Positions 1-27,000 of a stretch of 64,000 bases of DNA are shown here, one piece after another (positions within the stretch are counted from its first letter, which is position 1; each line of letters starts with the position of its first letter). Made by a program: the position numbers. Origin of the DNA: Octopus vulgaris (lineage: Eukaryota); NCBI GenBank assembly GCA_951406725.2, contig OX597841.1, positions 25,296,001 to 25,360,000 on the forward strand. The letters run 5' to 3'.

Positions 1-3000
1 CTGGTTTGAAGTAAGTACTTGAATTTTAAATCCGTGTGTCTTTGTATTTGAATTAATGAGATTAAGTAGTGCTTTTCGAATGGCTCTCTTTCTTCAGAGT
101 TGGTTAATTCCCTATAGTTAATGTTATTTCAATGAAACACTGGCAACGATGTGTGTACGCTTTGCGAGTGTGAATTAGCATGTACGTACAACAATGAGGG
201 TAGCCCGTTACTCTGGTATAATTCTCAATTTGTATGTGACTCTCCTTCACAAACTTTACGGATTGTGTGAGAGAGAAAGAGAAAAGACAGAGAGAGAGAG
301 AGGGAGAGAGAGATGGAGGGAAAGAGAGAAAACTGCATGAACGCTCAAGTATTTCTTCCTTTAATTTATATGATGCCCAAGTCATTATTACGCTTTAGTT
401 TTTTCCGTTTTCTATTTAATTAAAATAATCATTGTGTATAGAGGTTACAGTGAAGATTAGCTGCGGGAATTGAAATCTTGTTAAACATCATGGATAAAAC
501 AACTAATAGATGGCTAAGAAAATTGATTCCATTTAAAATACTACTCTAGGAACAAGGTCCGAAATTTTGGGGAATGGGGCCAGTCGATTAGATTGAGCTC
601 AGTACACAACTGGTACTTAATTTATCTACACCAAAAGAATGAACGGTAATGTCAACCTCAGCGGAATTTGAACTCAGAACGTATATATTTATATCTATAT
701 CTATCTATATATCCAAATATATATATATATATATATATATATGTACATATAATATATGTGTATATATGTATATGTATATGTATATATATATATATATATA
801 TATATATATATATATATGTAAATATATTCATATGTATATATATTTATATATATATTTCAAAATGTGACCTCGTGTGTACCGTTGGCGATTTTTGTCCCTC
901 TGTCTTCCCTTCTCTGTATCTTTCCTTCTCCAATGATTCCGACGAAGAGCTCCGCTCGAGACGTTAAACCCTCCTTCTTTCCTTCTTTCCTGAGCATCAA
1001 ACAATACTAGATGTGTTCCACGTACTCGCGTTGTTGTGTTTTTTTGTGCTTTCTTATTTGGATTAAATTTATATATATATATATATGTATTTAAATAAAT
1101 GTATATATATGTATATGTATATATGTGAATATATATATATGTGTTTATATGTATACGTATATATATATATATATATGTATATATTTATATATGTGTATAT
1201 ATATGTATATATATATAATATATGTATATGTATATAACTATATATATATATGTATATATATATATGCATATATATGTGTATATATATATTACTATATATA
1301 ACTATATATATAACTATATATTAGCGCCGTATTTATTACGTTCGCTATTTTCCAGTAAATATCGGTACTTCGTTGTGCCATATATTTACTTCTATATATA
1401 TATATATATAACTATATATATATATATAACTATATATATATATATATATATATATATATATACTATATATATATAACTATATATATATATATATAAATAT
1501 ATATATATATATATATATATATATATATATATATATATATATATATATATATAATGATAAGAGTAAATAATTTCTATAAAGGCTTTTAAAAAAACCCCAA
1601 TTATTTACTGGTAGAATTCGGTATGTAAATATAGCCGATTACCGGCAGGAACTTCTGTAAAGTTCAGTATATATATTGTATATAAGAGAAAGGGACAGGC
1701 AAAACAGGTTGCTTGACCGCATACCGAAAAAATAGAAATAGCAGTCAAGAATGCTTATTTCTATCAAAGTTGGACTCCGGGCATGACAGACCCTGTAATT
1801 CACATATGCAAAACAGAAGGAATAGATAACGAATACGAAGTCTGGCGGTTATCTGTGAACATCATGTTTCTGGATTATAAACATATTGAATATATATTCC
1901 ATATATTTTTGATATATATTTCATATATATTGCATATATATTTCACATCCTTCTTCAGCACAGCTTTCCATTGAAAAAGATTTATCATAGATTTATCAAA
2001 TGCTACGTACCTCAAACCTTCTGACCATGCGACATCAAAAAATTTGAAGAAAGTGAGCAAAGGCTAAACCTACATAGACGTTTGAATTCATAAATCTTCC
2101 CTCCAAAATTTTGCCATACGCATTACAAAAATAGTTCCATAAGATGGGGAACAATTAGGTTTTTGATTTTTCACTCCCTTTGACAACCTAATTGTTCCCC
2201 ATCTTATGGAACAATTTTTGTAATGCGCATGGCAAAATTTTGGAGGGAAGATTTATGAATTCAAACGTCTATGTAGGTTTAGCCTTTGCTCACTTTCTTC
2301 AAATTTTTTGATGTCGCATGGTCAGAAGGTTTGAGGTACGTAGCATTTGATAAATCTATGATAAATCTTTTTCAATGGAAAGCTGTGCTGAAGAAGGATG
2401 TGAAATATATATGCAATATATATGAAATATATATCAAAAATATATGGAATATATATTCAATATGTTTATAATCCAGAAACATGATGTTCACAGATAACCG
2501 CCAGACTTCGTATTCGTTATCTATTCCTTCTGTTTTGCATATGTGAATTACAGGGTCTGTCATGCCCGGAGTCCAACTTTGATAGAAATAAGCATTCTTG
2601 AGAGCTATTTCTATTTTTTCGGTATGCGGTCAAGCAACCTGTTTTGCCTGTCCCTTTCTCTTATATACAATATATATACTGAACTTTACAGAAGTTCCTG
2701 CCGGTAATCGGCTATATTTACATACCGAATTCTACCAGTAAATAATTGGGGTTTTTTTAAAAGCCTTTATAGAAATTATTTACTCTTATCATTATATTAC
2801 TATTTGGATTTTTCACTCCCTTTGACAACCTAATTGTTCCCCATCTTATGGAACTATTTTTGTAATGCGCATGGCAAAATTTTGGAGGGAAGATTTATGA
2901 ATTCAAACGTCTATATAGGTTTAGCCTTTGCTCACTTTCTTCAAATTTTTTGATGTCGCATGGTCAGAAGGTTTGAGGTACGTAGCATTTGATAAATCTA

Positions 3001-24000: not shown

Positions 24001-27000
24001 AGGCGTGTATCATTGTGCTACTTAATTAAAATATCGAAGGCATTAAGGTGTGTTTTAGCTGATATTTTTCTATTGATCGAACAATTTGTCAACTGTCTAT
24101 TGACACGATTTTCCTGATGAAGAAGACAACAATTGTTTGTTTTAGGATTTTATAAATCTTTGTTAGTGATCAATCCTTTTATCTAACTAGTTCACTGCCT
24201 CATTCAAGAAATACTTACTGCTACATGAATAACGACTTGAAACTGTTCACATTACACCAAATAAGGAATGGACACCTACCGCAAGATATTTTTCCTCTTT
24301 GTCATATTCATGGTAATATGCATTTCTTTTTATATTTCTCAATTTGAATATAATCTCAAGAACCTACAAAACATTTGGAATTGGACTTCAACAACTAAGC
24401 AGTGTTTCCTACAGAAGGAATTCCTCTCGATTGTTTCCAGGTAATCAGACTGAAAACGATCGTATCGAAGCTCAAATGAAATATGTCCTACCAGGAGAGG
24501 AAAGATGGGAAAATTATGAACGGAATAGACACCAAAATCAGTCAGATTCTGATCGAAATGTAAAGTTAAAGCCAATTAGACCAAAGTTTAAAACGTTGTT
24601 AATATACAGTTTAGAATATCTGCAACCATTGAAGGAAAATCAAACGAGTTTCCTGGAATATAAATGTCCAGTTAATGAATGTTTAGTCATAAACAACAAA
24701 GCAATGCAAAATAGTGTAGATGCTATTTTCTTTTATGAGACAGTGGGACTATCACAGAAACCAACCCACACGAACCAAATATGGATTTATATGACACAAG
24801 AGTGTCCTGTTTTCAACCCATCAGTGAAACACATGGGAAACAAAATCAACTGGACGATTACTTAACGGCCGGACAGTACGATTGTATATCCTTAAAGGAA
24901 ATTTCGATATTTTAACAAGTCAGTAAGACAAAAAGTACAATTTCAAAATTATGCAGCGGGAAAAACAAAGAAGGTTGCTTGGTTCGTATCGAACTGTCGT
25001 CCAACCAACAATCGAATGGGTTATGCTAAGGTGGATATTTACGGTAGATGTGGTACAAAAGTTTGCAAAAGAGAGAATAAAACTAGTTGCTTTGAGATGT
25101 TAAAAAAGGAATACAAATTTTATTTGGCATTCGAAAATTCCAGTTGTAGAGGTTATATTACTGACATTCTCAGTTTTATATATATATATATATATATTTA
25201 TATATATGTATGTAGATAGACAGATGTTTTATATGATATCTTTATATATGATTTATATATATAATTTGCTTGCATGAATCATTATTTCTCATTCCAATAT
25301 TGTTTATGGCAGCTGTATTTTCGTTTTTTCTTTTCTTTTGTCTATTGCAGATATAATGCTATTCCAATTGTAATGGGTGCCCATCCTGACGACTATCGTG
25401 AAGTAGCACCCGAGAATTCATACATCCACTACGAGGATTTTAAATCCCCAAAAGAATTGGCAGATTATCTGCATAAACTTGATAAAAATGATACTCTTTA
25501 TAATGAGTATTTCAAATGGAAAGGAACAGGAGAATTTATTAATACCAAATTTTGGTGTCGTGTTTGTGCGATGCTACACGCTGCCGATTATTACAAGCCG
25601 ACATGGTATGAGAACGTATGGGAATGGTGGGCAGGAAAGGGTCAGTGTATTGGAAGGCGCCGGTGGACATAAAACATAGGATATTGTGATATAATGTCCA
25701 TGATGTTGTCATTGAACGGGATAAACTATATTGAGAGAGAGAGAGAGAGGGAGCGAAAGAGAGAGCGAGAGAGAGATTGAGAGGAGGCGGGAAAGATAGG
25801 GAAGAGGTAAGAGAACTTAAAAACTGCAAATTCTCGCATACTGAAAACCATTTAAAATTCTTGGGTAATCTTTCCTTTCGAACTGTTTTTACTTCTACAA
25901 CCGTATTTAAACAAACATATTGAACAGTGTTTATTTTTCTTTTCGTGAATTCGTTTCCATCGTTACATGATTTATTTCTTTATGTGTGTCACGTTACAGA
26001 GTTGTGCTTATATAAATACTAGACTACCCGTGACCTGTTGGGTCACCGGGAAACTCAGTGATACAGCAACGGAGTTTTGTTTCGTAAGTTTTGTTCTTTT
26101 CCGAGTTATTTCGCATGCTTTCAACGAATGACATTGAAATCACATTGAATATACCATCTGGTTTATTCAACTGATGAAAGCAGAGTTTATTTGAAGCCAA
26201 GCTAGAAATCCAGGAACTTGAATTATCCAGTAATATCTTTTTGCTAGTTTATTTTGACCCTCTGTCTTATCTTGTGGTGCAATATGAACATTTTAGGTGG
26301 TTTTTAAAGTCAGGGATTTGACTACTACTTCGGTATGGTGGTGTCTCTCAGATACCCTTATTTATAGTTGTAAAAAATTATTACCGTTCTATGTTATTTA
26401 TTTCCATGCTGGCCACTTGATAATATCGATATTTAAATATTGATATTGTCCTTATTTATGAATATATATATATACTCTTTTTGAGTCCTTTTGACTGCGG
26501 CCATGCTGGAGCACCGCCTTTAGTCGAGCAAAATTACCCCGGGACTTATTCTTTGTAAGCCCAGTACTTATTCTATCGGTCTCTTTTGCCGATCCGCTAA
26601 GTGACGGGGACGTAAACACACCAGCATCGGTTGTCAAGCAATGCTAGGGGGACAAACACAGACACACAAACATATACACACACGTACATATAAAGATATA
26701 TACGACGGGCCTCTTTCAGTTTCCGTCTACCAGATCCACTCACAAGGCTTTGGTCGGCTCGAGGCTATAGTAGAAGACACTTGCCCAAGATATCACGCAG
26801 TGTGACTGAACCCGGAACCATGTGGTTGGTTAGCAAGCTACGTACCACACAGCCACTCCTGCGCCTATATATATATATATATATATATATATATATATAT
26901 ATATATATATATATATATATATATATATATATATATATATATATATACATACATACACTGGTTTTCAAAACTAGAATTATTATTATTTCTATGTCTCTCT

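What the first reader, a model, noticed from the sequence alone, without database searches (positions are those of the whole stretch)
1..25672. FucT cluster with several first exons but a single terminal exon (UGT1/protocadherin-like shared exon?)
Seen: phase-2 donors at 10|11 and 10428|10429. The only terminal exon is at 25351 with a phase-2 acceptor, so AA+A gives ...GLK-YNAIP in frame. Copies 0 and 1 have no terminal exon of their own, and the exon 1 adjacent to the terminal exon is dead and lacks a donor. Inference: a full ~421-aa enzyme needs splicing over ~14.9 kb, skipping the pseudo-exon. Upstream exon-1 variants could share one constant exon, a variable/constant architecture arising from decayed tandem duplicates.
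Basis: partly seen in the sequence, partly recalled or inferred. Interest (0 to 1): 0.8.

Follow-up and report, generated by a model that had tools for sequence, protein, structure and literature searches.

The report
Duplicated fucosyltransferase first exons, mostly dead
The front half of a two-exon fucosyltransferase gene has been copied at least six times around a single back-half exon, but only one readable copy is still intact and the copies drift like junk DNA, so this looks like ordinary duplication debris and not a designed set of interchangeable first exons.

Summary
Exon 1 (9485-10428, 314 codons + 2 nt) ends in AA|GTAAGT. The same donor sits at 10|11. The only terminal exon is 25351-25672, with a phase-matching acceptor. 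The exon-1 copy beside it (24268-25165) is dead and has no donor.

Pfam and the FUT9 structure show that exons 1 and 2 are adjoining halves of one GT10 alpha-1,3-fucosyltransferase. A 421-aa enzyme therefore needs a 14,922-bp intron.

There is also a 72-bp scrap at 8496-8567 (-). All are broken, and none can reach exon 2. The tally is six exon-1 copies to one exon 2, and 1 of the 5 readable copies is intact.

Exon 2 and its 3' flank are single copy. Homology to the intron's 3' end stops 17 bp before the acceptor, so the duplications probably never included exon 2.

The copies show no constraint: dN/dS is 0.8-2.0, exon identity equals intron identity, and the intact copy carries 15 nonsynonymous to 3 synonymous private changes.

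Verdict: this is a birth-and-death array of partial 5' duplications with one workable gene model. A UGT1/GCNT2-like layout exists at the DNA level, but nothing shows it works as such a system. No transcript data were available.

The parts
1..10 (+). Last 10 nt of exon-1 copy 0, followed by a GTAAGT donor at 11. The exon body lies outside the window.
   Evidence: Identical to 10419-10428 plus its donor. The first 712 nt of intron are 97.6% identical to copy 1's.
11..1555 (+). 5' part of the intron after copy 0, homologous to 10429-12006.
   Evidence: blastn 1-1555 vs 10419-12006, 93.7% over 1597 columns.
8073..8227 (+). Remnant of the intron's 3' end, without acceptor or exon 2, lying upstream of copy 1.
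   Evidence: 90.4% identical to 25177-25333. Homology stops 17 bp before the acceptor. A dispersed repeat follows at 8229-8297.
8496..8567 (-). 72-bp inverted scrap of exon 1 (codons ~12-35).
   Evidence: 85-87% identical to 9519-9590 and to the same stretch of the other copies.
8896..9484 (+). Upstream sequence duplicated together with exon 1 (candidate promoter/5'UTR), bounded on the left by (TA)n at 8706-8930.
   Evidence: Shared with copies 2, 4 and 5. (TA)n. Promoter activity not tested.
9485..10428 (+). Exon-1 copy 1, the only intact readable copy. It holds the ATG, a short tail, a hydrophobic anchor, the stem, the GT10 N-domain and the first half of the GT10 C-domain. Donor AA|GTAAGT.
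   Evidence: Open 314 codons. Pfam PF17039 4-109/109 and PF00852 3-79/182. FUT9 8d0o residues 51-222.
10429..25350 (+). Inferred 14,922-bp intron of the only workable gene model. It contains microsatellites, an 87-bp x15 array, a 573-bp palindrome and pseudo-exon copy 2.
   Evidence: Donor and acceptor read directly. Repeats. Splicing inferred, not observed.
24268..25165 (+). Exon-1 copy 2, a pseudo-exon: frameshift, two stops, a 21-bp deletion, 3' end and donor lost.
25177..25350 (+). 3' end of the intron, with pyrimidine tract and AG acceptor.
   Evidence: 25177-25333 is homologous to 8073-8227.
25351..25672 (+). The single terminal exon: 1 nt + 106 codons + TAA. It encodes the second half of the GT10 C-domain, including the C-terminal CxxC.
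   Evidence: Pfam PF00852 84-182/182. FUT9 228-315. Single copy in the window.
31151..31663 (-). Exon-1 copy 3: codons 1-171 only, truncated against a LINE fragment.
   Evidence: tblastn. blastn 9294-9988 vs 31855-31160, and 30949-31160 vs 34615-34386. RT domain at 34162-34629.
50869..51810 (-). Exon-1 copy 4: full length, but with CGA>TGA at codon 55 (51646-51648) and a 1-bp deletion in the last codon that shifts the splice phase. GTAAGT retained.
58609..59257 (+). Exon-1 copy 5: 303 nt (equivalent to 9751-10053) replaced by 10 nt, which shifts the frame. Donor GT retained.

Best explanation
The locus is a two-exon GT10 alpha-1,3-fucosyltransferase gene. Its 5' module has been duplicated repeatedly without exon 2. 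That module is about 0.55 kb of upstream sequence, exon 1, and at least 0.7 kb of intron, bounded by (TA)n microsatellites. It was copied in tandem (copies 0, 1, 2), as an inverted pair (copies 4, 5) and as a fragment (copy 3).

The result is a birth-and-death array. Copy 1 is the only readable first exon that still has an open frame and a donor. The only way to make a complete enzyme is transcription from upstream of 9485 and splicing of 10428 to 25351. Copy 0 may offer a second route, from 10 to 25351. That splice passes over pseudo-exon copy 2, which is ignored because it has neither acceptor nor donor.

The other copies are by-products with no function. The array is not kept for protein diversity.

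Shown: the anatomy, the homology and the lack of constraint. Inferred: the order of events, promoter activity and splicing.
For: 1. Exon 1 and exon 2 are adjoining parts of one domain. Pfam PF00852 covers 3-79 then 84-182. FUT9 8d0o covers 51-222 then 228-315. The splice phases match.
2. There are six exon-1 copies plus a 72-bp scrap against one exon 2.
3. The unit from copy 0 to copy 1 is colinear with the unit from copy 1 to copy 2 across about 10 kb.
4. Exon 2 and its flank (25334-26460) are single copy. The intron-3' remnant at 8073-8227 ends 17 bp before the acceptor. This fits an intragenic duplication breakpoint.
5. 4 of the 5 readable copies carry disabling lesions.
6. There is no sign of constraint.
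   - dN/dS is 0.78-2.01 in 10 of 10 pairs.
   - Exon identity is 93-95%, against 95-96% for the adjoining intron.
   - Private changes in copy 1 are 15 nonsynonymous to 3 synonymous, like dead copy 4 at 13:2. P = 0.0013 if omega were 0.2, and 0.54 if omega were 1.
7. An open frame in 1 of 5 copies is unremarkable. P(no stop | 18 random substitutions) is 0.36, and flank indels run at about 1 per 10 substitutions. That gives roughly 0.06-0.24 per copy.
8. Upstream sites group copies 1+2 against 4+5 at 22:0:0. Intron sites group 0+1 against 4+5 at 14:2:2. This fits one tandem lineage and one inverted-pair lineage.
Against: - No transcript evidence of any kind was available, so neither use nor disuse of any exon is shown.
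- Copy 0's body is outside the window and may be intact.
- Copy 1 does remain open over 314 codons with a perfect donor, and exon 2 is intact. That is mildly in favour of some constraint.
- The polarity of copy 1's private changes is uncertain in the 3' half of the exon. Site patterns there conflict (4:4:5), which suggests gene conversion.
- dN/dS above 1 could be read as diversifying selection, although the synonymous counts are tiny (5-9).
- The first break in homology at microsatellites is partly a product of BLAST's low-complexity filter. For copies 0 and 1 a further aligned piece runs through the (TA)n to 1555/12006. For copies 4 and 5 nothing was found beyond 11147-11151.
Confidence: 0.55

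Rival explanations
1. This is a working multiple-first-exon gene of the GCNT2/UGT1 type. Copies 0 and 1 each have their own promoter, and each is spliced to the shared exon 2. They give two isoenzymes that differ in stem and acceptor-side residues. Dead copies are the normal by-product of birth-and-death in such arrays.
For: - Same-strand tandem first exons with identical strong donors lie upstream of one acceptor.
- Each copy carries about 0.55 kb or more of duplicated upstream sequence.
- First exons lack acceptors, so splicing to exon 2 is the default outcome.
- Copy 1 has a cluster of private amino-acid changes at residues 268-281, in a loop that FUT9 does not conserve.
- Vertebrate GCNT2 shows that a Golgi glycosyltransferase can be organised this way (PMC1885805, section 7 read).
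Against: - Only 1 of 5 readable copies is intact.
- No purifying signal exists, and the exon is no better conserved than the intron.
- Copies 0 and 1 share a T (codon ACT / ...CT) where the GT10 donor-binding motif E-N-X5-Y-X-T-E-K-X3-(N/R) expects N or R. Dead copies 4 and 5 keep the N.
- Copies 3, 4 and 5 cannot use exon 2 at all.
- No expression data are available.
Confidence: 0.2
2. The whole locus is dead. It is an untranscribed or non-functional pseudogene array in which copy 1 and exon 2 happen not to have been hit yet. The working FucT paralogues lie elsewhere in the genome.
For: - Copy 1's lineage shows a neutral pattern, 15 N to 3 S.
- The chance of staying open is not small.
- Copies 0 and 1 depart from the motif at residue 312.
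- No AATAAA or ATTAAA occurs in the 1.5 kb after the exon-2 stop.
- The region is saturated with retroelement debris and microsatellites.
- Incomplete FucT gene fragments are reported in another invertebrate genome (PMC3655985, passages).
Against: - Copy 1 is open over 314 codons. Its start has G at -3 and +4, and its donor is perfect.
- Exon 2 is open, with its conserved CxxC and a strong acceptor.
- Pfam scores of copy 1 are undiminished at 105.1 and 64.0 bits. The dead copies score the same, however.
Confidence: 0.2
3. This is an assembly artefact. Uncollapsed haplotypes or mis-joins in a microsatellite-rich region create extra exon-1 copies or hide exon-2 copies.
For: - Copies 0 and 1 are 97.6% identical over 712 nt of intron. 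I recall, without checking it in any call, that this falls within allelic divergence in some highly heterozygous invertebrates.
- Unit boundaries lie in (TA)n tracts, where assemblers fail.
Against: - The window has no N.
- The copies differ by distinct lesions and kilobase-scale insertions.
- Copies occur in both orientations, with their own flanks.
- The site patterns give a structured genealogy.
Confidence: 0.05

Closest known systems
Vertebrate GCNT2 (IGnT) cluster
   Same: GCNT2 is a Golgi type II glycosyltransferase. Its large first exon encodes the membrane anchor and most of the catalytic domain. That exon is tandemly repeated upstream of shared constant exons (PMC1885805, abstract and section 7 read).
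   Different: - In GCNT2 the three variable exons are intact, conserved across mammals, each with its own promoter, and shown to be spliced.
- Here only 1 of 5 readable copies is intact, no constraint is detectable, three copies are misplaced, and splicing is untested.
- The glycosyltransferase family differs: GT10 here; GCNT2's family is GT14 by my recall.
- That paper calls the organisation vertebrate-specific (section 14).
UGT1A and clustered protocadherin variable/constant loci
   Same: Both have a tandem array of first exons with donors and one downstream constant region. Birth-and-death evolution leaves pseudo-exons in these arrays (PMC1885805, abstract and section 14).
   Different: Those arrays have many diversified exons, with positively selected sites and per-exon promoters. 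Here the copies are 93-95% identical, the differences look neutral, and at most two exons are usable.
Partial (5') gene duplicates and orphan gene fragments, such as the incomplete FucT fragments in Schistosoma mansoni
   Same: These are incomplete pieces of alpha-3-FucT genes without the rest of the coding sequence, alongside pseudogenes formed by segmental duplication (PMC3655985, passages only).
   Different: The schistosome FucT genes have 5-8 coding exons, and their fragments are scattered. Here a two-exon gene has its first exon amplified locally around the one second exon.
Animal GT10 alpha-1,3-fucosyltransferases (FUT9-like)
   Same: Both Pfam GT10 domains are present, as are the FENS...YITEK donor-binding motif and the N- and C-terminal cysteines. 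The best solved relative is human FUT9, 8d0o.
   Different: The coding sequence is split by one phase-2 intron inside the C-domain. Vertebrate FUT1-6 and FUT9 are described as monoexonic (PMC3655985 passage). Residue 312 of copy 1 departs from the motif's final N/R.

Membership tests
GT10 alpha-1,3/4-fucosyltransferase (Pfam PF17039 + PF00852) | N-terminal GT10 domain (PF17039) | tested here: met
   Exon 1 residues 109-211 match profile positions 4-109/109 at 63.2 bits, against a cutoff of 28.7.
GT10 alpha-1,3/4-fucosyltransferase (Pfam PF17039 + PF00852) | Complete C-terminal GT10 domain (PF00852) | tested here: met
   Met only by the two exons together. Exon 1 covers 3-79/182 (104.8 bits) and exon 2 covers 84-182/182 (86.3 bits). 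The exons were searched separately and the joined protein was not made.
GT10 alpha-1,3/4-fucosyltransferase (Pfam PF17039 + PF00852) | Donor-binding motif E-N-X5-Y-X-T-E-K-X3-(N/R) (PMC12717137 passage) | tested here: inconclusive
   Copy 1 reads E-N-SNCRD-Y-I-T-E-K-FFT-T, so every position fits except the last, which is T. Copies 4 and 5 have N there. FUT9 itself aligns with one residue fewer, so the spacing is not strict.
GT10 alpha-1,3/4-fucosyltransferase (Pfam PF17039 + PF00852) | Conserved cysteines tying a C-terminal segment to the N-domain (PMC12717137 passage) | tested here: met
   Exon 1 has C-PVNE-C, with the second Cys aligned to a FUT9 Cys. Exon 2 has C-RV-C aligned to FUT9 C-LA-C. 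Three of four are seen aligned, and the first lies just outside the aligned stretch. The partners are split between the two exons.
GT10 alpha-1,3/4-fucosyltransferase (Pfam PF17039 + PF00852) | Type II topology: short N-terminal tail then one hydrophobic anchor | tested here: met
   MDTYRK is followed by a 17-residue hydrophobic run, IFFIFVIFMVICICFYI, read directly from the translation. No topology predictor was run.
GT10 alpha-1,3/4-fucosyltransferase (Pfam PF17039 + PF00852) | Fucosyltransferase activity | not testable with these tools
   Needs expression and an enzyme assay.
Multiple-variable-first-exon cluster (UGT1A / GCNT2 / Pcdh type) | At least two similar first exons in tandem, on the same strand, upstream of shared constant exon(s) | tested here: met
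   Copies 0, 1 and 2 on the + strand lie upstream of the one exon 2.
Multiple-variable-first-exon cluster (UGT1A / GCNT2 / Pcdh type) | Each variable exon has its own promoter | not testable with these tools
   Each copy carries about 0.55 kb or more of duplicated upstream sequence. Promoter activity is unknown.
Multiple-variable-first-exon cluster (UGT1A / GCNT2 / Pcdh type) | Each variable exon is spliced separately to the constant exon | not testable with these tools
   Donors are present in copies 0 and 1 and absent in copy 2. No RNA data are available.
Multiple-variable-first-exon cluster (UGT1A / GCNT2 / Pcdh type) | Variable exons are intact and kept or diversified by selection | tested here: not met
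   1 of 5 readable copies is intact. dN/dS is 0.78-2.01, and exon identity is about equal to intron identity. Copy 1's private changes are 15 N to 3 S.
Multiple-variable-first-exon cluster (UGT1A / GCNT2 / Pcdh type) | The organisation is conserved in related species | not testable with these tools

The most novel reading that the evidence does not exclude
The locus is a variable-first-exon glycosyltransferase gene caught at birth in an invertebrate. Copies 0 and 1 each carry their own duplicated promoter. Both would be transcribed and spliced to the single exon 2, giving two GT10 isoenzymes. This would be an independent origin, in another enzyme family, of an organisation that PMC1885805 describes as vertebrate-specific for UGT1/GCNT2. 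The surrounding dead copies would be its birth-and-death record.
Probability: 0.2. Interest if true: 0.55.

Novelty: new member of a known kind. Interest (0 to 1): 0.25.

Why it matters
If the ordinary reading is right, the practical point concerns annotation. Gene finders will meet six FucT-like first exons here, and only one model deserves a protein call: 9485-10428 joined to 25351-25672. The other copies should be flagged as pseudo-exons, so that FucT family counts for this genome are not inflated.

The locus is also a clean example of how a shared-exon layout arises mechanically. An intragenic duplication stopped 17 bp short of an acceptor. If transcripts from both upstream exons were found, it would show the first step of a UGT1/GCNT2-type architecture outside vertebrates.

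Tried and rejected
- **Taxon or SINE clues.** Rfam at gathering thresholds and ARAGORN over the whole window found 0 matches each. The organism stays unidentified. It is AT-rich (about 34% GC) and full of (TA)n, LINE and Penelope-like debris, and I do not take it for human.
- **Pfam scores as a decay test.** I compared the intact and dead copies. The scores are the same: copy 1 at 105.1/64.0 bits, copy 4 at 103/60.6, copy 5's C-part at 107.0. The test is uninformative.
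- **Degenerate exon-2 remnants.** tblastn at E <= 10 and blastn at word size 7 found none.
- **'Exon 2 was lost by a simple deletion in unit 0.'** Not supported. The repeat that follows the intron remnant (8229-8297) matches 26513-26450 only in the opposite orientation.
- **Capture of the exon-1 module by a transposon.** I found no terminal repeats or element ORFs bounding the module, only microsatellites. I did not pursue it further.
- **Literature on FucT loci with shared or alternative first exons.** One search returned 84 papers with 15 listed. One search returned 19 with 15 listed. Judged by titles and abstract openings, none describes such a locus. That is no proof of absence.
- **Poly(A) signal.** No AATAAA or ATTAAA lies in 25673-27200. 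This is a weak point and I did not build on it.
- **Steps not run.** No structure prediction, complex prediction or atlas search was run, because the family is already clear from Pfam and PDB. The joined exon-1 + exon-2 protein was deliberately not made or searched.

Full report
**What the window is.** The 64-kb window has no N and about 34% G+C. It is dense with (TA)n and other microsatellites. It also holds LINE reverse-transcriptase fragments and Penelope-like elements, meaning RT plus GIY-YIG. Rfam and ARAGORN found nothing. It looks like an AT-rich invertebrate-type genome. I do not take it for human, and I could not name the organism.

**Check of the observation.**
- Positions 1-20 and 10419-10438 are the same 20 nt, CTGGTTTGAA|GTAAGTACTT. 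Both donors are therefore canonical and phase 2.
- Copy 1 of exon 1 runs from the ATG at 9485 to 10428. An in-frame stop sits just upstream. The exon is 314 codons plus 2 nt.
- The acceptor ...ttgtctattgcag|A lies at 25350|25351, behind a long pyrimidine tract. Exon 2 then runs for 1 nt plus 106 codons to a TAA at 25670-25672.
- AA + A gives Lys followed by YNAIP. The protein would be 421 aa, and the intron would be 14,922 bp.
- The exon-1 copy next to exon 2 (24268-25165) is dead. It has:
  - a 2-bp deletion at ~24403;
  - TAA stops at 24863-24865 and 24893-24895;
  - a 21-bp deletion at ~25029;
  - (TA)n in place of its last ~24 nt and its donor.

**Do the two exons belong together?** I searched them exon by exon.
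- Pfam: exon 1 carries Glyco_tran_10_N (profile 4-109 of 109) and Glyco_transf_10 positions 3-79 of 182. Exon 2 carries positions 84-182 of 182.
- Solved structures: exon 1 aligns to residues 51-222 of human FUT9 (8d0o), and exon 2 aligns to 228-315.
- Key features are split between the exons. The FENS...YITEK donor-binding motif ends exon 1. The C-terminal CxxC lies in exon 2. A review reports that this CxxC forms disulfides tying the C-terminal segment to the N-domain (PMC12717137, passages only).
- An exon-1-only product would end at ...TTGLK, because the unspliced donor reads AAG TAA. It would lack half of the donor-binding domain.

The join is therefore strongly supported by homology, although it has not been seen in RNA.

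tblastn with exon 1 finds three more copies.
- Copy 3 (31663-31151, minus strand) has codons 1-171 only. It is cut off against a LINE fragment.
- Copy 4 (51810-50869, minus strand) is full length. It has CGA>TGA at codon 55 and a 1-bp deletion in the last codon, which changes the splice phase.
- Copy 5 (58609-59257, plus strand) has 303 nt replaced by 10 nt, which shifts the frame.
- A 72-bp inverted scrap lies at 8496-8567.

The exon-2 peptide hits only itself; the 4 other rows have E >= 1.3 and span 8-22 aa. Region 25334-26460 has no other copy at blastn word size 7. The tally is six exon-1 copies plus a scrap against one exon 2. Of the five copies whose bodies can be read, one is intact. 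Copies 3 and 4 are on the wrong strand, and copy 5 is downstream of exon 2, so no shared-exon scheme can serve them.

**Anatomy of the duplications** (unless another call is cited).
- The stretch from copy 0 to copy 1 (1-10418) is colinear with the stretch from copy 1 to copy 2 (10419-25164). The matching blocks are:

| Copy 0 unit | Copy 1 unit |
|---|---|
| 1-1555 | 10419-12006 |
| 3319-3681 | 12194-12554 |
| 4183-4676 | 18250-18737 |
| 6571-6871 | 20282-20582 |
| 6832-7136 | 22036-22346 |
| 8706-10404 | 23490-25164 |

- The two units differ by element insertions and microsatellite expansion.
- Copies 4 and 5 lie in a large inverted duplication, with arms about 44508-52426 and 64000-57341.
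- The part common to all full copies runs from the (TA)n upstream of exon 1 (8706-8930, 23452-23712, 57904-58036) to about 0.7 kb into the intron (11147-11151, 735, 50139, 59975). There another (TA)n or a 224-bp array begins. BLAST's low-complexity filter contributes to those apparent ends.
- A 155-bp piece of the intron's 3' end (25177-25333) recurs at 8073-8227, upstream of copy 1, at 90% identity. Its homology stops 17 bp before the acceptor. A dispersed repeat follows it.

Exon 2 and its flank are single copy. The simplest history is therefore an intragenic tandem duplication whose right breakpoint fell just short of the acceptor, followed by further copying of the 5' module. The copies most likely never had an exon 2. 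This is an inference. A later deletion that removed exon 2 cannot be excluded.

**Selection tests.**
- Nei-Gojobori dN/dS is 0.78-2.01 in all 10 pairs among copies 1-5. Only 3-9 synonymous differences support each value. The copy-3 pairs include a misaligned tail that I did not mask.
- Exon identity matches the adjoining intron: copy 1 vs 4, 95.1% against 95.5%; copy 1 vs 5, 94.0% against 94.8%; copy 4 vs 5, 95.4% against 95.7%.
- Changes private to each copy, nonsynonymous to synonymous:

| Copy | Nonsynonymous | Synonymous | Note |
|---|---|---|---|
| 1 | 15 | 3 | the intact copy |
| 2 | 22 | 4 | inflated by its scrambled 3' end |
| 3 | 6 | 2 | |
| 4 | 13 | 2 | |
| 5 | 7 | 3 | |

- With 757.5 nonsynonymous and 178.5 synonymous sites, seeing 15 or more nonsynonymous changes out of 18 has P = 0.0013 at omega 0.2, 0.015 at omega 0.3 and 0.54 at omega 1.
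- Upstream sites group copies 1+2 against 4+5 at 22:0:0. Intron sites group 0+1 against 4+5 at 14:2:2. This places copy 1's private changes on its own lineage.
- Inside the exon the informative sites conflict at 4:4:5. That hints at gene conversion and weakens the polarity there.
- Is one open copy surprising? After 18 random substitutions the frame stays stop-free in 36% of trials, and after 10 in 57%. Indels in the flanks run at about 1 per 10 substitutions. A neutral copy therefore stays open with a probability of roughly 0.06-0.24, and one in five is unremarkable.
- Pfam scores of the intact and dead copies cannot be told apart.
- Copies 0 and 1 share a Thr codon (ACT; only ...CT is visible in copy 0) where copies 4 and 5 have Asn. 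The GT10 motif E-N-X5-Y-X-T-E-K-X3-(N/R) expects N or R at that position. FUT9 has one residue fewer at this point, so I treat this as a hint only.

**How it most likely works.** If transcription starts upstream of 9485, the donor at 10428 has no partner until the acceptor at 25351. The pseudo-exon in between has neither an acceptor nor a donor. Splicing to exon 2 is therefore the default and would give a 421-aa type II GT10 enzyme. The same logic holds for copy 0, across 25,340 bp, if that copy is intact and transcribed. Nothing indicates that it is a selected variable/constant system. I put about 0.55 on 'one workable gene model plus duplication debris'. I put 0.2 on a working two-first-exon gene, 0.2 on a wholly dead locus and 0.05 on an assembly artefact.

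**Comparison with what is known.**
- The nearest analogue is vertebrate GCNT2. It is a Golgi glycosyltransferase whose large first exon is present in two or three tandem copies, each with its own promoter and each spliced to common exons. UGT1A and the clustered protocadherins are further examples (PMC1885805: abstract and sections 7 and 14 read). Those arrays evolve by birth and death and do contain dead exons, so dead copies alone do not exclude membership.
- The feature that fails here is intact exons under selection. Promoters, splicing and cross-species conservation could not be tested.
- Incomplete FucT gene fragments and FucT pseudogenes are already reported in Schistosoma mansoni (PMC3655985, passages only). 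My searches for a FucT locus with shared or alternative first exons turned up none among the rows listed. I judged these by titles and abstract openings only.

**Limits.**
- No transcript data were available.
- There is no outgroup.
- Copy 0's body is outside the window.
- Supplementary files of the cited papers could not be seen. They hold the GCNT2 alignments and trees and the schistosome gene maps, and may bear on the comparison.

Noticed in passing
window 5538-6979 (-), 53362-54708 (-), 55748-57555 (+): Three Penelope-like retroelement remnants: reverse-transcriptase-like ORFs followed by a GIY-YIG nuclease domain. One lies in the intron after copy 0. One sits at the centre of the copy 4 / copy 5 inverted duplication.
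   Followed up: partly
window 44508-52426 vs 64000-57341: A large inverted duplication at 93-98% identity in blocks, whose arms each carry one dead exon-1 copy. It runs off the end of the window.
   Followed up: partly
window 18651-19954 (also 4183-5009): An 87-bp unit repeated 15 times at 95% identity. It keeps a 226-codon open frame on the minus strand (19038-19718). A short version lies at the colinear place in the copy 0 unit.
   Followed up: no
window 22601-23172: A 573-bp near-perfect palindrome (97.7% identical to its own reverse complement). It sits where the copy 1 unit lacks the intron-3' remnant that the copy 0 unit has.
   Followed up: no
window 10286-10330 (copy 1 residues 268-281): About 10 substitutions private to copy 1 lie within 45 bp, changing ...GRCGTKVCKRENKTSC... 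to ...GVCGTKSCTRKNENKC.... Conflicting site patterns in the exon's 3' half (4:4:5) suggest gene conversion among the copies.
   Followed up: partly
window 10413-10418 and 1-2; 50876-50881 (-): Copies 0 and 1 have Thr (ACT / ...CT) where copies 4 and 5 have Asn, at the last position of the GT10 motif E-N-X5-Y-X-T-E-K-X3-(N/R).
   Followed up: partly
window 25673-27200: No AATAAA or ATTAAA occurs in the 1.5 kb after the exon-2 stop codon, despite the AT-rich context. A (GA)n tract follows the stop.
   Followed up: no
window 49170-50296: A 224-bp unit repeated 5 times starts close to the point (50139) where copy 4's homology to the exon-1 module ends. A single unit lies at the matching place after copy 5, at 59814-60038.
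   Followed up: no
window 38655-39374 (+): A 239-codon open frame with no significant Pfam match. The best is an NHL repeat at E = 0.34, below the cutoff. It could be an exon of an unrelated gene or just chance.
   Followed up: partly
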